Of a stretch of 64,000 bases of DNA, positions 52,761 to 64,000 are shown one piece after another. The first letter of the stretch is position 1. Each line of letters starts with the position of its first letter. The notes beneath the pieces are model-generated. The model was given only the letters and a program-made list of their open reading frames with translations. It was not told where the DNA came from and made no database searches. The position numbers and the translations under genes are program-made. Source of the DNA: an uncultured Akkermansia sp. (GTDB lineage Bacteria > Verrucomicrobiota > Verrucomicrobiia > Verrucomicrobiales > V1-33); assembly GCA_964523105.1 (NCBI GenBank), contig CAZFZN010000012.1, forward strand, positions 103,547-167,546, in the 5' to 3' direction.

Positions 52761-52799
52761 TCAGTGCTCAGTGCTCAGTGGTCAGTGCTCAGTGGTCAG
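52761..52799. repeat. Heptamer tandem repeat (TCAGTG[C/G]) x5 plus partial unit
   Basis: Units start at 52761, 52768, 52775, 52782, 52789 and 52796 (partial). Confidence 0.9.
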
Positions 52800-54294
52800 C
52801 CACTTGTTGGTTTTTTGTCATGTCTTCAAGAGGGCTGGAAGCGGAGAAGGTGATTTCGAGGTCGTCTTTGCCGATGACGATCTTTTCCACAAGAGCTTCC
52901 ACGACGCGGCGACGATTGTCGGGGGGAAGCTGGGGCCAGTTGGCGTAGAGGGATTGGGCTTCGTTGGTGACGGCGTCGGCGCTGAGGTTCTGGACACGGG
53001 CGAAGTCTATCTCCCCCTCCAATCGGGGGATGTCGGTCTGGAGCTGGAGGAGGCGTTCGGCCAGCGGCTTGTGGTAGTTGCCGAATTCCTCGATGGGGAT
53101 GTGGCCGTCAAGGTAGAGGCGGTGGGTCTTGGCCATTTCGTCCCGGACTTTCTGGAGTTCGCCCTGCTGGTTGGCGAGGAGTTTCTGCTTTTCTTCGATC
53201 TGAAGCGCGGCGCTGGCGAGGTGGGCGGTGACGCGGGGCCTTTCCCCGAAGATGGATTTGAGTTCTTCAATGAAGATGGCGTCGAGGTCTTCGATGGCGA
53301 TCTTGTTGCGGCAGGCTTCGCAGATGTATTTGCGGGTGCCGGTGCGGACATACATGCGGGCGCCGCAGTGACAGTGCGCGAGGCCGGCGAAGGTCTGGAC
53401 GGGTTTGCGTCCGGGGCGTTTTACTTTGCGGCCCTGCTGCTCTTCGATGATTTGGTTGGCTTGGTTCCAGACGGTTTCGCTGACGAGGGGTTCGCATTCC
53501 ACACTTCCCCATTCGGATTCGTCTTTGATCTCGTTGGTCCATGCGCCGGTGCGGCGATAGACGTTGAGGCGGTGGGTGCCCTTGGCGGACCAGTCGGTGA
53601 GGATGCGCCCGATGGCCATGTCGCTCCATGGGCAGCCGGCGCGGGTGCGGTAGCCGGAGGCGTTCATTTCGCGGGCGACGCGGCCCTTGCGGCGGTGTTT
53701 GAGGAAGAGTTCGTAAGCAAGCTTGCGGACGGGGCCTTCCACGGGATGCGGGACGAGTTTCTTGTCCTTCCAGTGGTAGCCGTAAGGGGATTTGCCGTTG
53801 GTGGGTTTGCCGAGTTTGGCGCGGATTTGTATCGAGGCTTTGATCCGGTCGCCGATTTCCTCCCTCTCCCACTGCGCCATCGCGGCGATCATGGTGTAAA
53901 AGAGGCGTCCGCTGGGTGTGGAGGTGTCGATGGATTCCTGCAGCGAAATGAGGTCGGCGTTCGCGGCGCGGAAGGTGTCAGCGAACTCAAGGAGTTCTTT
54001 GGTGTTGCGGGCGAGGCGCGCGAGCTTGGAGAAGATGAGGGCCTTTATGTGGCCGCGCTGGAGGTCGCGAAGCATGCGTTTGGCTTCGGGGTGCTCCATG
54101 ACGGATTTGCCGGAGACTCCGGCGAGGTCATAGACTTCCCTGACGTTCCAGCCTTTGGCGGCGGCGTAGTTGCGGGCGCGGGCTTCGTGATGCTCGGGGC
54201 TTTCGCCCTGCGCCTGATCTTCGGTGCTGACGCGAATCCAGATGCCGACGGATTTGGCGGCCGGTGCAGTGAGGGGCTGGGGTTTTGCTTTCAT
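52789..54294 (-). CDS. Large serine recombinase (integrase)
   Basis: IRVST catalytic Ser, EVYDLAGVSG, LARLARN, AQWEREEI, PYGY, CHCG..CEAC zinc ribbon, coiled coil, LVEKIVI. Start reassigned to ATG 54294. Confidence 0.95.
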   Translation of the reverse strand: MKAKPQPLTAPAAKSVGIWIRVSTEDQAQGESPEHHEARARNYAAAKGWNVREVYDLAGVSGKSVMEHPEAKRMLRDLQRGHIKALIFSKLARLARNTKELLEFADTFRAANADLISLQESIDTSTPSGRLFYTMIAAMAQWEREEIGDRIKASIQIRAKLGKPTNGKSPYGYHWKDKKLVPHPVEGPVRKLAYELFLKHRRKGRVAREMNASGYRTRAGCPWSDMAIGRILTDWSAKGTHRLNVYRRTGAWTNEIKDESEWGSVECEPLVSETVWNQANQIIEEQQGRKVKRPGRKPVQTFAGLAHCHCGARMYVRTGTRKYICEACRNKIAIEDLDAIFIEELKSIFGERPRVTAHLASAALQIEEKQKLLANQQGELQKVRDEMAKTHRLYLDGHIPIEEFGNYHKPLAERLLQLQTDIPRLEGEIDFARVQNLSADAVTNEAQSLYANWPQLPPDNRRRVVEALVEKIVIGKDDLEITFSASSPLEDMTKNQQVADH

Positions 54295-54513
54295 GCGGCC
54301 TAAGTAAATGAGAAAGCATGCGGACGCAATTTGAATCCATCTTGCGTTGGTAATTTGCGATTGAGTACTCCTTCCACGGGAAGTGCCTCTCACCGTGCGC
54401 TTCTTCTTCAAGATCGAATCGCTTCCGTTTTGCAGCGAGACCATCTGTTCGCCGGCACAGCGCGGAGGCTGCACAACTTGACAGGCATGGTCACGATATG
54501 ATAGGATCAACGT

Positions 54514-54810
54514 ATGAGAAAGCACAGCAAACCAAGCAAAGCGGGCGCGAAGCGGCGCATTCCGCCACGGATTCGCCTCAGTCCCGCTGTCCTGCGGACT
54601 GCGACACTGGCGGAGATCAATTTCGGCCTGCGGGCGCACCGTGATTTGGGTCACCTGCCCTTCGGGTTCACCACAACGAGCGGAAGGAAGATCATGGTGG
54701 CGACTGCTTCCGATTACAGCTTCACATTCATCGCGGCAGCGGAGAGATTCGGACAGTGGACGAAGGGACACCAGCTTCGGGAACTGAACGAAGTCACGCT
54801 CACCAATTGA
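54514..54810 (+). CDS. Small basic hypothetical protein divergent from the integrase
   Basis: 98 aa, ATG start, followed by a terminator-like hairpin. Confidence 0.5.
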   Translation: MRKHSKPSKAGAKRRIPPRIRLSPAVLRTATLAEINFGLRAHRDLGHLPFGFTTTSGRKIMVATASDYSFTFIAAAERFGQWTKGHQLRELNEVTLTN

Positions 54811-54908
54811 GTCGGGGGAACTTTTGCAAGTCGGCACGAATCGCTGTTCCCGGCAATATGTGCTGATCAGAATGATCGGCACGGCGTCCACCCTGACACG
54901 CCTTAAGA

Positions 54909-54936: not shown

Positions 54937-55280
54937 GACTTTGTGTCCTCCGGCATTTTAGCCCCTTTACCTCCGAGGGAAGCGGTATCTTGGCAGGTTA
55001 AGCCGGTTCCCGGTCCGATATAGCGGCGCACTCGTCGCGGTCTTTCGGGAGCCTGTCCGAATTCCATTTGCCCGCAGCTGCGAAGACAGGCTCGACAGTT
55101 CAGCACGAGAAAACGACACAATCTTTGTCACGAAATCCGGCCGGGCGTGTATATGTAATTAACAACTCGCTGAATCCTCATCTGGAATCACGCGTTGCAC
55201 CAATCGGCCGTTTGAACGCCGCCCTTCGCCTGTGTGTCACATCATTCCCCTGACCTGTAACCCCCAACCCTGCCCCTGCC

Positions 55281-58200
55281 ATGCCCTCCTCTAGTTCTTC
55301 CGGCCCGTTCTACGGCACGACTCCGATTTGTCTCTGCTGCTGCGATTGCTATGACGGCATGGGCGGCGTCGATAAAGGCCTGACTGACAACCCCGTGCGC
55401 GCCTTTGACGGCATTCCCGTCGTTTCGGTGGAGGGTATTTCCGGGCGCGGGTTGAATATCCCCTTCGGGCTGGAGATGGCATGGGGGCCGGCTGGCGGTT
55501 CGGGGACAGTTGGCGCTGGATGGGTGCTGCACGACTTGGCGAGGCTGCAAACCGCGGCTTATCCCGGAGAGATTACATATGTGGCCGGGCCAAACCAGAT
55601 TGAGGTCTTTGTGGCCACGGAGACGCTGGACGTCTGGAAGGGGGCCTACTACGTGCGCAGCACGCTGGTTTTCGATTCCATGACCGACCTCTACACGATG
55701 ACCATGCCGGATGGCAGCCAGAGAGTCTTCGATGATGAGGGGTATTTGACAATCATTCGCTCTGCCGGCGGTGTGGAACTGGGAGTGGCCGGAGGAGCCA
55801 CCGTTTCTGATGTTACCGGCACGGACTTTCGTTATGGATTCGATTGGGCGGACGGGAGAATTTCCACCGTCACACAGTATGTCACCAGAGACACAGTTGA
55901 GTCCGCCGTCCGGCGCACGAAATTCACCTACTGGAGCGGGAGCCCGGCCAAACTTCAGTCTGTGACCAATGAGGATCCGCCGCTTCCCGGGGACACGGAG
56001 TGGCAGCGCTGCGAGAAGACTTTCTTCACCTATCATGGCGATGACCTGCTCAAGCATGTGCTGCGCGACGCTTCGCTCAGGCGCATGGTGTCTGCGGGCA
56101 TCAGCATGGAAACCCCCGAAGAGATCGCGGCGATCACTGAGGAGCAGTACGATACCTATGCCGATGAAAAGTTCACCTGGGACGGCACCAAAGTGCAGAC
56201 GGAGGCCACTCACGGCGGGCAGTACCTATGGGAGTTTGCCTATGGCACCAGCGGCTACACCGATTCCGATCCGAACGTCTGGTCGAACAACACGGTCGTG
56301 ACGCGACCCGACGGCTCGGTAGAGACGCTCTTCTTCAATCAGGCCGGAAGTGTGCTGCTGCGGCAGGTGGATAAGGATGGCCAGAAGTGGTGGCCGGTGT
56401 GCCAGAGGTTCGATGACCGGATGCGGGTCATCGAAGTGATCTCCGCGGCGGCGATTTCCGAAGTGGACCCCGATCCCTTGGACCCGGAGGGTTTGATTAC
56501 CTTCAATGCGGACGTGGGCCTCATCCGCGGCTTTTCCTACGACGACGATGCCGGTCAGGTCTTCGAGGAGTGGGTCCAGAAGGGATCGGAAGGCGATCAG
56601 GTTCTGCTGCGCGAGAAAGGATACGAACCTCCGCGGACGGTCGGGAGTTTTCCGCCCATTTACATGGTTACGTCCGAGAAGGTTTATCTGAACGCCACTG
56701 ATTTTGCGGAAACGACCTTCGCCTACGCATGGTACACGGATCAGTTCCAGATGCTCAGCCGCACCACCACGCTGCCGGAGGTGCCGGTGGATCAGAACGG
56801 CACCGGTGATGATGAGGTGACCATCGTGGAAACCTTCGATGCGCAGGGCTTCCCCGACGTCCGCACGGATCAGGCCGGCGTGGTCACGGATTACGACTAC
56901 GATCCCGTCACCGGCGGGATGACGCAGAAGATCGAGGATGACGGCGGGCTGGATCTGACCACCGATTACGAACTCGACGACGAAGGGCGCACCATTCTGG
57001 AAAAAGGCCCGGTGCATGAGATTGACCTCGCCGGCACTCCCACCACCATCCGCCGCGCCGTGTGGACGTATTACCGCGACCCGGAGCAGGAGCGCATCAC
57101 GTTTCCCGGCTACATCATTATCGGCGAGAGCGATGCGGAACTCAGCAGCCACTGCGTTGGCCCGGTGACGATCGAGCGCGGGTTCGTCGCGCCTGACCTG
57201 CCGGACGGCACTTCGTTCACCGATACCATCGCCGCCAAGTGGGAGCTGGAGCGCCTGCCGCTGCCGGAGGAGGTCTATCCGCAGGAAACATGGACGCGCT
57301 GGCAGCGCCGGCATTACAGCCAGGGCGGCGAGCTGATCGCGGAGCGGGTCTATCATGTCATCCCGGCCAGCGGCGAAGGCGTGAAGGACACGAACTACGC
57401 GGAGACTGCCTACGCCCGCGACAGTGCGGGGCGCGTGGACCGCGTGACGACGCCCGGCGGCACCATTCAGCAGACCATTTTCAACACCATGGGCTGGGTC
57501 ACTTCCCGTCTTGTCGGCACCGCGCCGGGGAATATGGTGACGACCGTGGAGAACGAGTACGACGACAACGACGACGAAGGCGACGGGCTGCTGACCAAAT
57601 CCACCCGCCCGGTGGACGGCAGTCCGGGCGGCGATCGCGTCACCACTTTCACCTACGACTGGCGGCAGCGGCCGGAGACAGTTAGTACCGTCGTGGACGT
57701 GTCCAGCGGCGAGGCCACGCTCATTACCGAAAACACCTACGACAATCGCAGCCTCGTCACGGAAGTCCGCGAGTATCGCACCGCCACCGGCGTGATTGGC
57801 AATCTCCTCGGCCAGACCTTCAACTTCTTCGATCCGCTCGGACGGCTCTACCGCACCTTCCGCTACAAAGTGGACAACGCCATCAGCAGCAGCCCCACCG
57901 ATTACCTTGAAGACAACACATGGTATGACCCCGTGGGCCGCGTGTCCGTGCAGTGGCCCGCCGGCAGCCAGGCCTTTCAGGCCCTGACCTACGATGCCGT
58001 GGGCCGGGTCACACATGCCTACACGGCCTACGAGCCGGGCTGGACCAGCAGTTCCTCCTCCAGCGGCTACGGCAATGCGCCGAACGTGGACGAATCCATC
58101 GTCATGGAGCAGCGGGACATGGAGTATGACGATGCCGGCAATGTCACCAGCACCGTGCTGCGCCAGCGCTATGACGATGCCACGGAAACCGGCCCCCTCG

Positions 58201-61076
58201 GCGACCACAACTCGGTGCCCGAAGCCCGCGTCAGTTGGCTGGCGAGCTATCCGGATGCCCTCGGGCGCACCGTGGCCACGGCCAATTACGGCACCAGAGG
58301 CAACACCGACGATATATGGGAACGCCCGGCCACCGTCCCCGCCGGCACCGACGACATCCTGGTGAGCCTCACCGCGTTCAACCCTGCCGGCGAGCCGTAT
58401 CTCACCACCGATCCCATGCTGGCGCAGACCACCCGCACCTGGGACGCCGCGGGCCGGCTCATCGAGGAAATCCAGGGCCGCGTCCCCGGGCGCGACATGC
58501 CGGCCATGGACCGCATCACCCGCTACACCTACAACTCCGACGGCAACCTCACCGTCCTCACCGCGCTCAACAACAACGGCGAGGAACAGAAAACTCAGTG
58601 GGTCTATGGCGTCACCGTCGCCGGCGGCTCCGCACTGTGCAGCAACCTGCTCGTCTCGCAGAAAATCTATCCCGACAGCCAGGGCGGCACCGACCTCGTC
58701 ACCTACACCTGCAACCGCGCCGGGCAGGTCACCACCATGACCGATCAGGCCGGACTGGTCCACAGCTACACCTACGACCAGCTCGGCCGCCAGACCGCGG
58801 ATGAAGTCACCCACTGGGGCAGTTCCGCCGCGGACCGCACCATTACAAAACTCACCACCCTCTACAATACCCGCGGCCTCGTCGTCGTTGCCAACAGTTA
58901 TGATGAGGAAGACACCGCCCGCAGCACCGTCCAATTTTTCTACAATGACTGGCGGCAACTGGCCACGGAATCCCAGGGCCACACCGGGGCCTCCGCCCGC
59001 AATATCCTCTACGGCTACGCCTCCGGCACCGCGAATACTATCCGGCGCACCAGCATGACCTACGTTTCGGGCCAGCCGAGCCCGCCCGTCCTCAACTACC
59101 TCTACGGCAGCGGCGGCACCGACCACGGCGACGCCCTCAGCCGCCCCAGCTTCCTCCAGGACGGGTCCACCAGCATTGTCGGCTACACCTGGCTCGGGCT
59201 GAGCACGGCGGTGGATGTGAATTACATCACCCCGGCCACCCGCATGTCCCTCGGCAACGCCGGCAATCACTATTCCGGCCTCGACCGCTTTGGCCGGCCC
59301 ATTGACATCCAGTGGATCAAGAGCAGCACCGCCCTCGTCCACGCACGCTACGGCTACGACCGCAGCAGCAATCGCCAGTGGCGGCGGGATGAAGCCGCTC
59401 ACGACAGCTCACCCGCGGTCACCACCGAAGACCAGTGGTACGAATACGATGGCCTCTACCAGGTCCGCGGCTTCCAGCGCGGTGATCTGGTGGGCACCGT
59501 CACCGACCACTACTCCGGCATCACCCCCGTGGACCAGAACCAGTCATGGAACTACGACGCCATGGGCAACTGGCGCGGCTTCACCAGCGATGCCCTCAGC
59601 CAGACCCGCCAGTTCAACAAGGTCAACGAAATCACCGGCCTCACCGGTCCATCAGGAGTCATCACTCCGCAGTATGACCCAACGGGAAACATGACCGTCA
59701 TGCCCTCCCTGGGGCACCCCGATTTGGAGCCTCCGGTGCCGGAGTGGACCGAAGCCGAGTCCCTCACATGGGACGCCTGGAACCGGCTCGTCAAAGTCAC
59801 CCGCGGCGGCGAGACCGTCGCCGAATACACCTACGACGCCCTCTTCCGCCGCATTACCAAAACCGTCGGCGAACTCACCCGCCGCTTCTACTACAACGAC
59901 CAGTGGCAAATCATCGAAGAGTACCTCAACTCCTCCTCCTCGCCCCAGGTCCGCTACTGGTACGGCATCCGCGATATCAATGACATCGCCCGCCGCCAGT
60001 TCTTCGCCACGCCCACCTCCACCGACCTCTACGCCCTGCGCGAAACCATGAACGTCGCCGCCCTGGTCAACGACGAGGGCACGCTCCAGCAGCGCATGGC
60101 CTACGACGCCTTCGGCACAGCCCGCTTCATGGAACCCGACTGGGATCCCGCCACCAACACCGCCGCCTGGCCGCTGCTCTTCCACGGCCACTACCAGGAC
60201 ACGGAAACAGGGCTCTACCAGATGCGCTTCAGATATTACCACCCGAAGCTGGGTGTGTGGCTCAGCAGGGATCCGATGGAGGAAACTGGGGGGCTAAACC
60301 TACAGACGTTCACAGCAAATGCGCCCGTCAATTATTTGGATCCTGACGGAAGATTCGTTCCTTTCCTAATTCGCCTCGCCGTCGGTCATTATAAATTTTT
60401 GGGAGGAATGATAGCCGGCGGCGTGGTAGCATCTAAGACGCAGGCTGATATCGATACATCCAGTGCATCAACAGGTGAACCAGAGGAATGCACGACTAAT
60501 CTGAGGTACGACGTAGACGTACCAAGCCTGACTCAATGGATAATCCTTCAATACCAAGTCGGATGCAAGGGGGGGGTCAAGATTACCAAAGCTACGGAGA
60601 CAGGTTTTTGGAATGGCTTCTGGCTCATAACTGCTTGGAGCCACTCTAGCATAGAAGTAAAGAAGCGCGAGTGGTTGAATACGTGCTGCGAAGATTGTAA
60701 TGGTGATTGGGGTATGAAGCAGCGAGTTACGCTAACTGTAAAGTGGGACATCTACAACTCGACACTAGGGATCAAGCACCACATCGGTTATCAAAGTGGA
60801 AGCGCTGACACGACCGTAGACATATGCTGCCCAAATGAAAATGCGAAGTATTGGTGTCCGAAAATGCAAAAGTTTTTTAGATTCGATTGGCTATTGAAGG
60901 ATAGCAAGAATCACAGCGGTATATCCTCTTTGGATTACTCTTCGCCGCCTTCGTCGGGCAGAGCTTTTTGGGGAGTAAACTCTTCGGTTATGACCACTCG
61001 AGGACTTGGTTCTATGAACTCGAAGTCCTCAAATTCGAATAATCCCTGCGATCGCTCATGTAATTGCTCAAATTAG
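55281..61076 (+). CDS. Rhs/YD-repeat polymorphic toxin-like protein, 1931 aa
   Basis: Many YD repeats (YTYDQLGR, YGYDRSSNR, YDAMGNW); core PLLFHGHYQDTETGLYQMRFRYYHPKLGVWLSRDP..PVNYLDPDG; variable C-terminus from 60351. Confidence 0.95.
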   Translation: MPSSSSSGPFYGTTPICLCCCDCYDGMGGVDKGLTDNPVRAFDGIPVVSVEGISGRGLNIPFGLEMAWGPAGGSGTVGAGWVLHDLARLQTAAYPGEITYVAGPNQIEVFVATETLDVWKGAYYVRSTLVFDSMTDLYTMTMPDGSQRVFDDEGYLTIIRSAGGVELGVAGGATVSDVTGTDFRYGFDWADGRISTVTQYVTRDTVESAVRRTKFTYWSGSPAKLQSVTNEDPPLPGDTEWQRCEKTFFTYHGDDLLKHVLRDASLRRMVSAGISMETPEEIAAITEEQYDTYADEKFTWDGTKVQTEATHGGQYLWEFAYGTSGYTDSDPNVWSNNTVVTRPDGSVETLFFNQAGSVLLRQVDKDGQKWWPVCQRFDDRMRVIEVISAAAISEVDPDPLDPEGLITFNADVGLIRGFSYDDDAGQVFEEWVQKGSEGDQVLLREKGYEPPRTVGSFPPIYMVTSEKVYLNATDFAETTFAYAWYTDQFQMLSRTTTLPEVPVDQNGTGDDEVTIVETFDAQGFPDVRTDQAGVVTDYDYDPVTGGMTQKIEDDGGLDLTTDYELDDEGRTILEKGPVHEIDLAGTPTTIRRAVWTYYRDPEQERITFPGYIIIGESDAELSSHCVGPVTIERGFVAPDLPDGTSFTDTIAAKWELERLPLPEEVYPQETWTRWQRRHYSQGGELIAERVYHVIPASGEGVKDTNYAETAYARDSAGRVDRVTTPGGTIQQTIFNTMGWVTSRLVGTAPGNMVTTVENEYDDNDDEGDGLLTKSTRPVDGSPGGDRVTTFTYDWRQRPETVSTVVDVSSGEATLITENTYDNRSLVTEVREYRTATGVIGNLLGQTFNFFDPLGRLYRTFRYKVDNAISSSPTDYLEDNTWYDPVGRVSVQWPAGSQAFQALTYDAVGRVTHAYTAYEPGWTSSSSSSGYGNAPNVDESIVMEQRDMEYDDAGNVTSTVLRQRYDDATETGPLGDHNSVPEARVSWLASYPDALGRTVATANYGTRGNTDDIWERPATVPAGTDDILVSLTAFNPAGEPYLTTDPMLAQTTRTWDAAGRLIEEIQGRVPGRDMPAMDRITRYTYNSDGNLTVLTALNNNGEEQKTQWVYGVTVAGGSALCSNLLVSQKIYPDSQGGTDLVTYTCNRAGQVTTMTDQAGLVHSYTYDQLGRQTADEVTHWGSSAADRTITKLTTLYNTRGLVVVANSYDEEDTARSTVQFFYNDWRQLATESQGHTGASARNILYGYASGTANTIRRTSMTYVSGQPSPPVLNYLYGSGGTDHGDALSRPSFLQDGSTSIVGYTWLGLSTAVDVNYITPATRMSLGNAGNHYSGLDRFGRPIDIQWIKSSTALVHARYGYDRSSNRQWRRDEAAHDSSPAVTTEDQWYEYDGLYQVRGFQRGDLVGTVTDHYSGITPVDQNQSWNYDAMGNWRGFTSDALSQTRQFNKVNEITGLTGPSGVITPQYDPTGNMTVMPSLGHPDLEPPVPEWTEAESLTWDAWNRLVKVTRGGETVAEYTYDALFRRITKTVGELTRRFYYNDQWQIIEEYLNSSSSPQVRYWYGIRDINDIARRQFFATPTSTDLYALRETMNVAALVNDEGTLQQRMAYDAFGTARFMEPDWDPATNTAAWPLLFHGHYQDTETGLYQMRFRYYHPKLGVWLSRDPMEETGGLNLQTFTANAPVNYLDPDGRFVPFLIRLAVGHYKFLGGMIAGGVVASKTQADIDTSSASTGEPEECTTNLRYDVDVPSLTQWIILQYQVGCKGGVKITKATETGFWNGFWLITAWSHSSIEVKKREWLNTCCEDCNGDWGMKQRVTLTVKWDIYNSTLGIKHHIGYQSGSADTTVDICCPNENAKYWCPKMQKFFRFDWLLKDSKNHSGISSLDYSSPPSSGRAFWGVNSSVMTTRGLGSMNSKSSNSNNPCDRSCNCSN

Positions 61077-61126
61077 CCGAATTTTATATGCATTTACGCG
61101 ATAGCAAACAATTGGGATAACGACTC

Positions 61127-61699
61127 ATGACTGCGGGTTCTTCATTTTGGGATCAATCGGGGACAGCCAAGCGCATACTGTGCGTGAGCGCAATCCCATT
61201 AATATTTTTTACAAACTTTGAACTAACTTACAGCGACATACATGGTGACGCGGTCTCCGCTGAGTATTCTGGCCTCCGCCTCAGCGGCGTATCAAGTGCG
61301 ATAAGTTCCTTATGGGTTCTGTATTTCGGGTTGGGGCTAATCCGGACTATAGTTGCCGGCAATATTTTAAAGGCAGCGGGGAAGGGGTTCAGCCCGAACG
61401 ATTGGGCTGTTTGGTGCAGTTATTTCCCATCCTTTCGGCTTTATTTATATACTGCTCCGTTATTTCTCGGGTTTCGCTGTTCATGGTTCAGCGAGGCTGC
61501 CAATCGGTACAGCACACTGTCCTTTGGAACGACTTCATCCGTCGCACCAGTGATCTTATCACTAGCGGCAGCTACTCTGTTGAACCTTTATATAGCATCA
61601 GCTCAAATGATCGGACGACACTTGAAGTTAGCTCGAATTAATATCTGTGAGAACTCTTCGGATATGGACGTGGAGCAACCGCATGAGGATCGGAAATGA
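61127..61699 (+). CDS. Putative immunity protein, multi-pass membrane
   Basis: Starts 50 bp after the Rhs stop, low GC like the Rhs C-terminus, about four hydrophobic segments. Confidence 0.6.
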   Translation: MTAGSSFWDQSGTAKRILCVSAIPLIFFTNFELTYSDIHGDAVSAEYSGLRLSGVSSAISSLWVLYFGLGLIRTIVAGNILKAAGKGFSPNDWAVWCSYFPSFRLYLYTAPLFLGFRCSWFSEAANRYSTLSFGTTSSVAPVILSLAAATLLNLYIASAQMIGRHLKLARINICENSSDMDVEQPHEDRK

Positions 61700-61769
61700 G
61701 GGCAAGGGGACGGCATGTAATTCTCAATTCAGGGCGGCGGTGGGCTAACGCTGACAAACTAAACAGGCC

Positions 61770-61873
61770 ATGTCCCATCCTACAACACTCATCGCAAAAC
61801 TACCAGGCCCCCGGCGACATCCTGATGCTGACGGCGGCGGTGCGGGACTTGCACCGGACGCGTCCGGGGGAAG
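61770..61873 (+). pseudogene. Frameshifted 5' fragment of a homolog of the downstream GT9-like gene
   Basis: Encodes QNYQAPGDILMLTAAVRDLHR, matching the start of the 62013 gene; 2-bp deletion after ACTCATC and synonymous differences. Confidence 0.85.
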
Positions 61874-62012
61874 GAATTGGGGAATTGGGGTCAGGGAATT
61901 GGGGAATTGGAGGGGAATTGGGGTCAGTGTGCATAAATTGACAAACCAAACCGAAATTGCGGAGGGGAATTGGGGTCAGTGTGCATAAATTGACAAACCA
62001 AACCGAAATTGC
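61873..62012. repeat. GGAATTGG short repeats plus a perfect 52-bp tandem duplication
   Basis: GGAATTGG units at 61873-61910; identical copies 61909-61960 and 61961-62012. Confidence 0.9.
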
Positions 62013-62969
62013 GTGCCTCAACCCGCCAAACTCATCCTGCAAAACAGCCAGGCCCCCGGCGACATTCTGATGCTGACCGCGGCGGTGCGGGATTTGCACC
62101 GGTGCCATCCGGGGAAGGTCCTCACGGACGTGCGCACGCCATTCCCTGACCTGTGGCGGCACAATCCCTACATTACTCCCCTCAGCGACGAAGACGCCGC
62201 GGCGGAGCGGCTGCACTGCCATTACCCGCTGATTCACCGCAGCAACAAGGAGCCGGTGCATTTCCTGCACGGATTCAGCGCCTACCTCGGCGAGCGGCTG
62301 GGTCTGCGCCTCGCACCCACAGCCTTCAAGGGCGACATCCACCTCACCAAAGAGGAAAAAGCCGAGGAGCCGCTGGTGCATCGCCTGACGGGAGACACCA
62401 GCCCCTACTGGATCATCGTCGCGGGCGGGAAATTCGACTTCACCATCAAGTGGTGGCCCACGGAGCGGTATCAGGCGGTGGTGGATCACTTCAAGGGCCG
62501 CATCCGTTTTGTGCAGGACGGCCTCTTGGAGCACCACCATCCGCCGCTGCGCGACGTGATTGATCTGCGCGGCCAGGTGCCGCTGCGGGAGCTGGTGAAA
62601 ATGATGCACCACGCCGCCGGGGTCATCTGCCCCGTGACCATGCACATGCACCTCTGCGCCGCCGTGGAAACCCCCAAAGGCCGCCCGCCGCTGCGCCCCT
62701 GCGTGGTCGTGGCCGGCGGTCGCGAGCCGCCGCACTGGGAAGCCTATCCCGGCCACCGCTTCCTGCATACCATCGGCCAACTGCGCTGCTGCCAGCACGG
62801 CGGCTGCTGGCGCTCCCGCGTGAAGCCACTGGGCGACGGCAGTCGCAAAGACCAGCCCGGCGACCTCTGCGTGGATGTGGTCAATGACCTGCCCCACTGC
62901 ATGGACCTCGTGACGCCGGAGGATGTGATCCGGGAGGTGGAAAAGTTTCTCCCGCTGTGGAAGCTGTGA
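62013..62969 (+). CDS. GT9-like (heptosyltransferase fold) glycosyltransferase, Cys-rich
   Basis: APGDILMLTAAVRDL, IKWWPTERYQ.V, DLRG..LREL, ICPVTMHMHLCAA, VVVAGGRE; CCQHGGCW..C..C tail. Confidence 0.8.
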   Translation: MPQPAKLILQNSQAPGDILMLTAAVRDLHRCHPGKVLTDVRTPFPDLWRHNPYITPLSDEDAAAERLHCHYPLIHRSNKEPVHFLHGFSAYLGERLGLRLAPTAFKGDIHLTKEEKAEEPLVHRLTGDTSPYWIIVAGGKFDFTIKWWPTERYQAVVDHFKGRIRFVQDGLLEHHHPPLRDVIDLRGQVPLRELVKMMHHAAGVICPVTMHMHLCAAVETPKGRPPLRPCVVVAGGREPPHWEAYPGHRFLHTIGQLRCCQHGGCWRSRVKPLGDGSRKDQPGDLCVDVVNDLPHCMDLVTPEDVIREVEKFLPLWKL

Positions 62970-63006
62970 ACAGGTTCTGCAAACGACAAGAGTAACATTT
63001 GGCGAT

Positions 63007-64000
63007 ATGCGCAGTTTTGTCATCGGTTTGGAACGCGCCCCTCGGAGACGTGCGCAGTTTTTTGCCAACGCGGCCCGCTGTGGATGGGAGGCAGAGATAT
63101 TTCCTGCGATTGACTGGCGCGACCTGCGGATATGCCCGATAGAGAGCGGAGCCCTGGTCAGTCATCTGCGCCGGCCGGAGGTCAATATTACCGGGATGCC
63201 TCTACCCGGAGAAGCGCTTACCCTGAAGGCGGGGCATTACGCCTGCGCCCTCTCTCACATGGCGCTGTGGCGGAAAATGCTCGCCGAGGGTGATGAGTTG
63301 ATCTGCATTTTTGAAGATGATGCAGTGATTCGCCGCCCGTGGGCGGCAGAGGAGATTCCTGTTGATGCGGACTTTGTTTTCCTGTGTGACGGCGTTCATT
63401 CACTGCGACCGCAAGGTATCAGACTGCACAGCACACAATACAGGCAATGGCGGGCGCGCACCCCTTTTGCTCCGCTGGTGCCGGGCTGTGGCACGGTGGC
63501 CTATCTTATCACCCGCGGCGGAGCAGAAAGGGGCCTCCGGCTCATGCAGCCCATGTTCCTCCCCATTGATCTTCAAATTATGGCCTGCGGCCACGGGACA
63601 GCTGCTGCGGGTCATCCGATGGCCCGGAAACGCTTGCCCGGCCTGCCAGAATGTAAGATCTACGCAGCCACGAAACCTTATACCGTCCACAAGGATGGCG
63701 GAATGAGTTATGTGATGGAAGGTGCGTCTCCCGCAACGGCGCAAGCCGGTGGCGCTTCCGAATTGGATAACCAGCCACCAGGTACCGACGCAAATCGAGG
63801 GGCGGCACCGATCTCTTCGGTAACCGGGAAACTGCACGCCCCGTGGAACAAAGGCCCAACCGCGCACGCCGGAAGGGTTGTTGTTGGACTTGGAACCGGC
63901 CGTTGCGGCACACAAAGCTTTGCAATGCTCATGGCCCGACAACCAGGAGTGAACTGCTCAAACCATGAACGGATCCACCTCCCCTGGCTGGGCTCTCATG
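63007..64000 (+). CDS. GT25-family glycosyltransferase fused to a sulfotransferase-like domain; 3' partial, absent from the ORF track
   Basis: Hand translation, open to the window end: FVIGLERAPRRR, ACALSHMALW, IFEDDA, AYLITRGGA, PID, linker, then VVGLGTGRCGTQSF and NHE. Confidence 0.82.
   Translation, partial: MRSFVIGLERAPRRRAQFFANAARCGWEAEIFPAIDWRDLRICPIESGALVSHLRRPEVNITGMPLPGEALTLKAGHYACALSHMALWRKMLAEGDELICIFEDDAVIRRPWAAEEIPVDADFVFLCDGVHSLRPQGIRLHSTQYRQWRARTPFAPLVPGCGTVAYLITRGGAERGLRLMQPMFLPIDLQIMACGHGTAAAGHPMARKRLPGLPECKIYAATKPYTVHKDGGMSYVMEGASPATAQAGGASELDNQPPGTDANRGAAPISSVTGKLHAPWNKGPTAHAGRVVVGLGTGRCGTQSFAMLMARQPGVNCSNHERIHLPWLGSH

What the first reader, a model, noticed from the sequence alone, without database searches (positions are those of the whole stretch)
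61770..61873. Diverged 5' fragment of the GT9 gene: scar of a toxin-cassette swap
The fragment differs from the intact gene at synonymous sites (ATC/ATT, ACG/ACC, GAC/GAT) and in its first codons, so it comes from a diverged homolog rather than a simple assembly duplication. A simple model is that an incoming piece (Rhs tip, immunity, start of its own GT9) replaced the resident tip. That would mean Rhs-immunity-GT9 linkage exists in independent copies of the element.
Basis: partly seen in the sequence, partly recalled or inferred. Interest (0 to 1): 0.65.

Follow-up and report, generated by a model that had tools for sequence, protein, structure and literature searches.

The report
Dead GT9 gene stub: Rhs cassette-swap scar
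A 150-base dead copy of the start of a glycosyltransferase gene sits between a bacterial Rhs toxin/antidote cassette and the working gene; it is a real but ordinary scar of toxin-cassette exchange between related Verrucomicrobia loci that share the same gene order.

Summary
Window 61794-61869 matches 62039-62114 (76 nt, 88%). Homology runs over about 61726-61873: a degenerate promoter-like motif, a short leader, and the first 34 codons of a GT9-like gene, with a 2-nt deletion.

The stub is not a recent local duplicate.
- Its 17-codon invariant block differs only at three synonymous sites.
- Its amino-acid differences fall at family-variable positions.
- It is equally distant (88%) from both intact copies in this genome and from another species' copy; the two intact copies are 95% alike.

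- A paralogous locus on another contig has the order Rhs, unrelated tip/immunity, motif, GT9, GT25.
- At least five other Verrucomicrobia loci have an Rhs core, a unique low-GC cassette and GT9 in the same order.
- One relative has displaced Rhs modules that carry the analogous stub of their flank gene (DUF4254).

The junction (CCGGGGGAA|GGAATTGGGG) lies in G-rich microhomology, at the head of a repeat that elsewhere flanks IS200-like transposase genes.

The best model is one-sided homologous plus illegitimate recombination, a known process.

The parts
55281..61076 (+). Rhs gene (1931 aa). The conserved core runs to about 60283. The core-end motif VNYLDPDGRF is at 60327-60356, followed by the variable Cys-rich tip.
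   Evidence: Pfam RHS_repeat. 85.7% DNA identity to the C16 paralogue up to 60283, then none. Motif coordinates.
58866..60283 (+). 3' part of the Rhs core, strongly diverged from the paralogue. Candidate left part of the imported block.
   Evidence: Identity to C16 is 90-100% over 56361-58700 and falls to 54-87% here. In 59094-59293 C12 is closer to other species' Rhs than to C16.
60284..61699 (+). Low-GC variable cassette: the Rhs tip (to 61076) and a 190-aa candidate immunity gene (61127-61699).
   Evidence: GC is 0.45-0.49 against 0.62-0.68 in the flanks. No Pfam family. The immunity protein matches only itself among 5.8 billion proteins. The cassette is unrelated to those of 7 other loci.
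61726..61769 (+). The stub's own degenerate upstream motif and leader (AATTCAGGGCGGCGGTGGGCTAACGCTGACAAACTAAACAGGCC).
   Evidence: Aligns with the upstream region of the intact GT9 and of the C16 GT9; 64% identity to the 52-nt unit, z about 3.8 against shuffles.
61770..61873 (+). Dead 5' stub of a GT9-like gene: ATG plus 34 codons, with a 2-nt deletion after 61793. In the GT9 frame it encodes ..QNYQAPGDILMLTAAVRDLHRTRPGE.
61870..61879 (.). Illegitimate junction: CCG GGG GAA | GGAATTG. GGAA/GGGGAA microhomology between GT9 codons 32-34 and the G-rich repeat.
   Evidence: Read directly from the sequence and the alignment.
61873..61923 (+). G-rich head of the repeat element: GGAATTGG units and a 22-nt duplication. 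It is the only + strand G4-type tract in the 64-kb window.
   Evidence: TRF and the repeat finder. G4-type regex gives 1 + strand match in the window. The same kind of head precedes the motif in other genomes.
61909..62012 (+). Exact 52-nt tandem duplication. Each unit holds the consensus motif GGGGTCAGTGTGCATAAATTGACAAACC plus the leader of the intact GT9.
   Evidence: The motif recurs at 0-8 copies per genome in 9 of 38 family genomes, with 0 in the reversed control.
62013..62969 (+). Intact GT9-like gene (318 aa).
   Evidence: Pfam PF01075, 23.2 bits against a cutoff of 22. 96% aa identity to the C16 copy. About 60% identical homologues occur in many phyla.
63007..64000 (+). GT25-domain gene. 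It runs off the window and contig; the full length is 493 aa when continued into the collapsed repeat contig C75.
   Evidence: Pfam PF01755. Contig overlap.

Best explanation
The stub is a non-functional relic. It does nothing now; it records a recombination event.

Proposed event: a piece of DNA from a related Verrucomicrobiaceae Rhs locus with the same gene order entered this locus. The piece carried the Rhs core 3' end, a toxin tip, an immunity gene, the promoter-like motif and the start of the GT9 gene. Its left end recombined homologously inside the Rhs core, probably near 58.7-58.9 kb. Its right end, which reached codon 34 of the donor's GT9, was joined illegitimately at GGAA/GGGGAA microhomology to the G-rich head of the repeat element just upstream of the resident GT9. 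The resident tip and immunity gene were lost, and the donor's GT9 start was left as a scar. The stub later acquired a 2-nt deletion, and the adjacent upstream region duplicated (22 nt x2, 52 nt x2).

Shown: the stub, its divergence pattern, the cassette boundaries, the microhomology, and the recurrent synteny with analogous scars in relatives.

Inferred: that the left side was the incoming DNA, where the left crossover lay, and the recombination pathway (homology-facilitated illegitimate recombination).
For: 1. The stub is real and highly significant.
2. It diverged as part of a working gene. The motif and leader are 64% identical to the neighbour, codons 1-8 are 67%, and codons 10-34 are 88%. 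The three changes in the invariant block are all synonymous (P about 0.02 under neutrality). Every family-invariant residue is kept, and the amino-acid differences (Y, T, R, E) lie at positions that vary in the family.
3. The stub is 88% identical to both intact copies and to a copy in another species (G003), whereas the two intact copies are 95% alike. It is therefore a third lineage.
4. GC content and homology to the paralogue mark one diverged block from about 58.8 kb to 61.87 kb, and that block ends at the stub.
5. The same order (Rhs core, unique low-GC cassette, GT9) occurs on C16 and in at least five other loci, and all eight cassettes are unrelated to each other.
6. There is an exact analogue in relative G016. 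Its displaced Rhs modules end in the motif plus a truncated 5' piece of the flank gene DUF4254, followed by an orphan Rhs core fragment.
7. The junction shows microhomology, and a second junction at the motif in G016 (L019) also shows microhomology (TCGGTG) but at a different position.
8. This mechanism has already been proposed for Rhs and T6SS effector-immunity displacement (PMC5361080, which cites Jackson 2009, PMC2935791).
Against: - No donor was found. The immunity protein is an orphan. The N-terminus-targeted protein search returns this genome's own two GT9s as best hits. Two metagenome pattern scans found nothing.
- The junction alone cannot tell which side came in.
- The left crossover is inferred only from comparison with one paralogue, which is itself mosaic.
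- The selection signature rests on three substitutions.
- The assembly could not be checked against reads, and the two paralogous loci share 0.9-1.1-kb stretches of 100% identity.
Confidence: 0.58

Rival explanations
1. Same kind of scar, opposite direction. The tip, immunity gene, motif and stub are the resident sequence. The block comprising the G-rich head, motif, GT9 and GT25 was copied in from a paralogous or related locus. It was anchored by homology on the right (GT9 3' end, GT25) and joined illegitimately on the left at codon 34 of the old GT9.
For: There has been recent exchange between the two paralogous loci on the right side: 62567-63666 is 100% identical to C16, and both contigs end in a collapsed shared repeat. 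The motif in front of the intact gene is a perfect family consensus, whereas the stub's motif and the C16 motif are degenerate.
Against: This needs two events: an earlier scarless replacement that brought in the diverged block, then this one. The first 600 nt after the junction are only 80-93% identical to C16, so C16 is not the donor.
Confidence: 0.22
2. Local tandem duplication of the GT9 upstream region and first 34 codons, by slippage between GGGGAA microhomologies, followed by neutral decay of the upstream copy.
For: The tract is visibly slippage-prone: there are exact 52-nt and 86%-identical 22-nt tandem duplications right next to it.
Against: Divergence is very uneven (64% / 67% / 88%) and is synonymous-only in the invariant block, which is not what neutral decay gives. 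The stub lacks the G-rich head. It is as far from its neighbour as from another species' gene.
Confidence: 0.08
3. Assembly artefact: a chimeric join of two strain variants or paralogues in a short-read assembly.
For: Contigs end with 55-nt overlaps typical of a de Bruijn assembler. The paralogous loci share long identical stretches. No read check was possible.
Against: The junction lies inside about 4 kb of sequence unique in the assembly. There is no 55-nt identity that could bridge the stub to the G-rich tract. No alternative-path contig carries the stub allele. Estimated contamination is 0.21%. Analogous scars exist in other assemblies.
Confidence: 0.05

Closest known systems
Rhs C-terminal displacement and orphan arrays (Jackson et al. 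2009, PMC2935791, as cited in PMC5361080; Poole et al. 2011, PMC3150448)
   Same: A conserved Rhs core, followed by variable tip/immunity cassettes of atypical GC content that are exchanged by recombination and leave dead fragments downstream.
   Different: The relic here is not an old tip or a core fragment. It is the 5' end of the donor's downstream neighbour gene, and no displaced resident tip or immunity gene remains.
Sequential displacement of T6SS effector-immunity modules by homology-facilitated illegitimate recombination in Vibrio cholerae (Kirchberger et al. 2017, PMC5361080)
   Same: One homologous anchor upstream and an illegitimate join downstream. The scar tells the history.
   Different: In Vibrio the old immunity genes are kept as arrays. 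Here the resident cassette was removed and only a donor-flank stub is left. There is no T6SS context in this window.
Orphan rhs-CT/rhsI recombination in Salmonella (Koskiniemi et al. 2014, PMC3967940, as cited in PMC5361080)
   Same: Tip swapping by recombination within the Rhs core.
   Different: That process is fully homologous and leaves no scar. Here one junction is non-homologous.
REP/RAYT-type or IS200-like Y1 transposase units, for the repeat at the junction (comparison from my own knowledge of the family)
   Same: The motif occurs as inverted pairs flanking a Y1_Tnp gene and as dispersed solo copies in intergenic DNA.
   Different: The motif has no hairpin. Copy number is low (0-8 per genome). 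The two junctions seen at it fall at different positions with microhomology, which does not look like site-specific cleavage.

Membership tests
Rhs polymorphic toxin locus with exchangeable tip/immunity cassette | Conserved Rhs repeat core ending in a PxxxxDPxGL-type motif, followed by a variable C-terminal domain | tested here: met
   Pfam RHS_repeat. Core homology to the paralogue ends at 60283. Core-end motif PVNYLDPDGR is at 60327-60356, with R in place of the usual L.
Rhs polymorphic toxin locus with exchangeable tip/immunity cassette | Tip plus small downstream gene differ between otherwise homologous loci and have atypical composition | tested here: met
   Eight loci have mutually unrelated cassettes. 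GC is 0.45-0.49 against 0.62-0.68 in the flanks.
Rhs polymorphic toxin locus with exchangeable tip/immunity cassette | The small gene protects against the tip (immunity) | not testable with these tools
   Only position and composition support it. No homologues were found.
C-terminal displacement scar | Displaced orphan tip/immunity module or core fragment downstream of the main gene | tested here: not met
   None lies between 61076 and 62013 in this window. Orphan core fragments are present in relative G016.
Homology-facilitated illegitimate recombination product | One flank homologous, the other junction non-homologous with short microhomology | tested here: met
   The left flank lies in the Rhs core. 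The right junction is CCGGGGGAA|GGAATTGGGG, with GGAA/GGGGAA shared.
Homology-facilitated illegitimate recombination product | Identified donor sequence and observed uptake or integration | tested here: not met
   No donor was found in relatives, the protein database or metagenomes. The process itself is not observable here.
GT9 (heptosyltransferase-like) family, for the gene the stub derives from | Match to PF01075 above the gathering score | tested here: met
   The intact copy scores 23.2 bits against a cutoff of 22, which is borderline. Homologues carry precomputed PF01075 hits. The stub itself covers only the N-terminal 34 residues but keeps the family-invariant PGD..LMLTAAVRDLHR..PG.
REP/RAYT system, for the repeat at the junction | Y1 (HUH) transposase gene flanked by inverted copies of the repeat | tested here: met
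   G000 C1 2212+/3380- around a PF01797 gene (5e-12). Also L010 and L108.
REP/RAYT system, for the repeat at the junction | The repeat is an imperfect palindrome that forms a hairpin | tested here: not met
   DNA folds are no better than shuffles (z +0.5 to +1.4).

The most novel reading that the evidence does not exclude
The repeat at the junction has a G4-prone GGGGAAWT head and a GGGTCRGTGTGCAWAAATTGACA core, and the same sequence forms the inverted ends of IS200-like Y1 transposase units. On the most novel reading it is more than a bystander. It would be the standard right-hand boundary of Rhs tip/immunity cassettes in this Verrucomicrobiaceae clade. It would act as a portable promoter for the gene downstream of the cassette, and as a break/join hotspot, through G4-stalled replication or HUH-enzyme nicking, that helps capture and stack cassettes. 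It sits directly after the immunity gene in C12, C16, L024 and three G016 modules, and two independent illegitimate junctions fall at its 5' edge.
Probability: 0.12. Interest if true: 0.6.

Novelty: new member of a known kind. Interest (0 to 1): 0.33.

Why it matters
The stub gives sequence-level evidence that Rhs toxin tips in free-living Verrucomicrobia are renewed by cassette exchange, as in Proteobacteria. It also shows that donor and recipient shared the same downstream glycosyltransferase neighbourhood. That documents a stable Rhs-glycosyltransferase synteny across several genomes of this clade. It also gives a dated marker (stub against intact gene) for reconstructing the order of events at this locus. 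It does not reveal a new mechanism.

Tried and rejected
Donor search, all negative:
- DNA of 60284-61966 against 60 relatives gave only GT9 5' ends at 79-87% identity and the repeat motif.
- The immunity protein searched against 5.8 billion proteins matched only itself.
- An N-terminus-targeted search with the stub read in the GT9 frame gave this genome's own two GT9s as best hits, and no HRTRPGE allele.
- Two degenerate-pattern scans of metagenome contigs gave 0 hits.

Other negative results:
- Rfam on 61000-62300: nothing.
- Sigma-70 promoter and terminator scan: nothing at the motif.

Ideas rejected:
- The motif as a general Rhs promoter. It is not significantly present upstream of the Rhs start in C12, C16, G005 or L024.
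- A transposon insertion into GT9 at codon 34. No remainder of the stub's allele (codons 35-318) exists anywhere in the assembly.
- Site-specific cleavage at the motif. The two junctions seen, C12 and L019, are at different positions and both show microhomology.

Full report
OBSERVATION

The window is contig C12:103547-167546 of a 7.3-Mb, 77-contig genome. Record titles of the closest loci place it in Verrucomicrobiales/Verrucomicrobiaceae.

The reported repeat is real. Positions 61794-61869 and 62039-62114 are 76 nt at 88% identity. A BLAST of 61740-61880 against the whole genome gives E=1e-22 for the neighbouring gene and 5e-23 for a third copy on contig C16.

The homology is longer than reported. 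It begins at about 61726 with a degenerate version of the sequence that lies upstream of the intact gene (AATT..GGG.G.C.GTG.GC.TAA..TGACAAAC.AAAC). The alignment score is 29, against a shuffle mean of 16 (sd 3.4, max 28). It continues through an ATG at 61770 and 34 codons to 61872-61874. A 2-nt deletion between 61793 and 61794 puts that ATG out of frame with the GT9 reading frame.

After the stub come three elements, in order:
- GGAATTGG repeats with a 22-nt duplication (61866-61909).
- An exact 52-nt tandem duplication (61909-62012).
- The intact GT9-like gene, 62013-62969.

WHAT THE STUB IS

Read in the GT9 frame, the stub encodes QNYQAPGDILMLTAAVRDLHRTRPGE. I compared it with about 110 family members recovered by a search aimed at the N-terminus. 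It keeps every invariant residue (PGD, LMLTAAVRDLHR, PG). Its differences from the neighbouring gene (S to Y, C to T, H to R, K to E) fall at positions that vary in the family, and the residues Y, T and E are also seen in other members.

Divergence from the neighbouring copy is very uneven:
- 64% identity in the motif and leader.
- 67% in codons 1-8.
- 88% in codons 10-34.

The three changes in the 17-codon invariant block are all third-position and synonymous (P about 0.02 if substitutions were random). That is the pattern of two alleles diverging under purifying selection, not of a local duplicate decaying. The sample is small.

Over the 76-nt core the stub is 88% identical to the C12 gene, to the C16 gene and to the gene of another species of the genus (G003). 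The C12 and C16 genes are 95% alike. The stub shares GDILML with the C12/C16/G003 group rather than the GDTLML of other genus members. Like G000, it has the motif directly in front of GT9, whereas other genus members have a DUF4254 gene in between. So the source was a fairly close relative or an old third paralogue, diverged at roughly inter-species level.

CONTEXT

Upstream is a 1931-aa Rhs gene (55281-61076).
- DNA homology to a paralogous locus on C16 runs from 55211 to 60283 and stops just before the core-end motif (VNYLDPDGRF, 60327-60356).
- From about 60240 to 61750, GC drops from 0.62-0.68 to 0.45-0.49. This low-GC stretch is the Rhs tip plus a 190-aa ORF (61127-61699).
- That ORF has no Pfam family and no homologue among 5.8 billion proteins.
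- The stub, at normal GC, begins right where the low-GC cassette ends.

C16 carries the same architecture: Rhs (1892 aa), an unrelated tip, an unrelated 216-238-aa ORF, a degenerate copy of the motif, GT9 (96% aa identity), then GT25.

Both contigs end at the same base inside the GT25 gene, in a collapsed repeat contig (C75). C75 completes a 493-aa GT25 fusion and encodes a 713-aa Mannosyl_trans3/Methyltransf_24/DUF4254 protein.

The two loci are mosaics of each other.
- The Rhs core is 90-100% identical over 56361-58700.
- It is only 54-87% identical over 58866-60283. In one window there, C12 is closer to other species' Rhs than to C16.
- To the right of the junction, identity is 80-93% for 600 nt, then 100% for 1.1 kb.

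So one diverged block extends from about 58.8 kb to the end of the stub.

THE LINKAGE PREDICTION

It does. Besides C16, the same-strand order (Rhs core, low-GC cassette, GT9) is found in:
- G005:C78, G007:C249 and G013:C171.
- A long-read Verrucomicrobiales MAG (L024).
- A Verrucomicrobiia MAG (L100).

All eight cassettes are mutually unrelated by tblastx.

Two further loci link Rhs and GT9 in other orientations: divergent in Verrucomicrobium sp. BvORR034, and convergent in L032.

In this genome the only GT9-like 5' ends are the stub and the two Rhs-linked genes.

ANALOGOUS SCARS

GT9 5' fragments also occur in G003 (aa 1-118), G007:C448 (aa 6-50) and G016:C111 (aa 3-101 and 71-97).

The clearest parallel is in G016.
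- Contig C75 reads: Rhs core end, low-GC cassette, consensus motif, a truncated 5' piece of DUF4254 (the gene that follows the motif in most of the genus), a junction, and then an orphan Rhs core fragment starting at about aa 1170.
- Contig C638 carries another such unit with the same junction, 92.9% identical over 367 nt.

So displaced or incoming Rhs modules in this clade recurrently carry the motif plus the start of the downstream flank gene. That is exactly what the GT9 stub is.

THE JUNCTION AND THE REPEAT

The join reads CCG GGG GAA | GGAATTGGGGAATTGGGG. GT9 codons 32-34 and the G-rich repeat share GGAA/GGGGAA.

The G-rich tract is the only + strand G4-type match in the 64-kb window. It is the head of a repeat whose core is GGGTCRGTGTGCAWAAATTGACA.
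- The core occurs at 0-8 copies per genome in 9 of 38 genomes of the family, with none for the reversed control.
- Inverted pairs about 1.15 kb apart flank a Y1_Tnp (IS200-like) gene (PF01797, 5e-12) in this genome (C1) and in G012 and G019. Deletion derivatives also exist.
- The motif has no hairpin, so it fails that REP criterion.
- Solo copies, always pointing toward the downstream gene, sit directly after the immunity gene in C12, C16 (degenerate), L024 (degenerate) and three G016 modules. It may serve as the promoter of the flank operon, but a sigma-70 scan found nothing there.

A second junction at this motif joins an Rhs N-terminal relic to the motif's 5' edge in G016:C111. It uses a different position and a TCGGTG microhomology. 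Two junctions at different positions, each with microhomology, argue for illegitimate recombination in a fragile tract rather than site-specific cutting.

MECHANISM

The best model is homology-facilitated illegitimate recombination. Incoming DNA from a locus with the same gene order paired in the Rhs core, and its far end, within the donor's GT9, was joined by microhomology just upstream of the resident GT9. This replaced the resident tip and immunity gene and left the donor's GT9 start. The pathway has been proposed for effector-immunity displacement in Vibrio and for Rhs orphan arrays (PMC5361080, citing Jackson 2009, PMC2935791, and Koskiniemi 2014, PMC3967940).

The mirror-image event, in which the right side is the incomer anchored in GT9/GT25, gives the same junction and cannot be excluded. 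It needs an extra event, so I rank it second.

A local slippage duplication followed by decay fits poorly with the uneven, selection-like divergence.

An assembly chimera is unlikely. The junction lies in about 4 kb of unique sequence with no bridging identity, and no alternative-path contig exists.

WHAT FAILED

No donor was found in 60 relatives, in the protein database or in two metagenome pattern scans. Rfam gave nothing. The motif is not a general Rhs promoter. No remainder of the stub's allele exists in the assembly, which rules out a simple insertion into GT9.

VERDICT

This is a well-documented example of a known kind of scar (Rhs/T6SS cassette displacement by one-sided recombination). 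It has two local twists: the relic is a piece of the donor's downstream neighbour gene, and the junction lies at the G-rich head of a Y1-transposase-associated repeat. Interest is modest.

Noticed in passing
window 61873-62012; G000 C1:2212-3380, C28:102756, C30:334, C39:169; L010, L107, L108, L116, L117: A family-wide repeat, (GGGGAAWT)n + GGGTCRGTGTGCAWAAATTGACA, forms inverted pairs about 1.15 kb apart around an IS200-like Y1_Tnp gene (PF01797) and around deletion derivatives. Solo copies occur elsewhere, many within a few hundred nt of contig ends. It has no hairpin, so it is not a classical REP.
   Followed up: partly
window 61866-62012: The G-rich head (22-nt unit x2) and the GT9 upstream region (52-nt unit x2, 100% identical) are tandemly duplicated. 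The tract is the only + strand G4-type sequence in the 64-kb window. The effect on GT9 expression is unknown.
   Followed up: partly
window 55211-64000 vs G000 C16:142632-151075, plus contig C75: A segmental duplication of at least 12 kb (Rhs, cassette, GT9, GT25 fusion, 713-aa GT/methyltransferase/DUF4254 protein). Identity is mosaic: 100% over 57666-58565 and 62567-63666, and 51-87% elsewhere. Both contigs end in the collapsed repeat C75, which forks to C18 and C77. This implies gene conversion between paralogues, and is also a place where a short-read assembly could have swapped arms.
   Followed up: partly
window 52789-54891 (-): A large serine recombinase (Resolvase + Recombinase + Zn_ribbon_recom) lies divergently upstream of the Rhs gene. 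C16 has a distantly related recombinase (26% identity), which looks N-terminally truncated, at the equivalent place (138953-140002).
   Followed up: partly
L104 (G016:C75), L106 (G016:C638), L019 (G016:C111): Relative G016 has an Rhs orphan array. Each module ends in the motif plus a truncated DUF4254 5' piece, followed by an orphan Rhs core fragment from about aa 1170. Two units share the same junction. An Rhs N-terminal 50-codon relic is sandwiched between two motif copies.
   Followed up: partly
L049 (Verrucomicrobium sp. BvORR034), L032: Rhs and the GT9-like gene are also neighbours in divergent and convergent orientations. The association is therefore not only a matter of a shared recombination flank, and may be functional.
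   Followed up: no
window 62013-62969: The GT9-like protein has homologues at about 60% identity in many phyla (Gemmatimonadota, Eremiobacterota, Acidobacteriota, Paraburkholderia, Pseudomonas japonica), with an almost invariant N-terminal PGDILMLTAAVRDLHR block. The Pfam GT9 score is only just above threshold.
   Followed up: no
L100 7720-8547: In a Verrucomicrobiia MAG, a Y1_Tnp-like gene (MARKLRVQYPGAIYHVLNRGDRR...) sits between the Rhs immunity gene and GT9. This is the same intergenic position that holds the solo repeat in G000.
   Followed up: no
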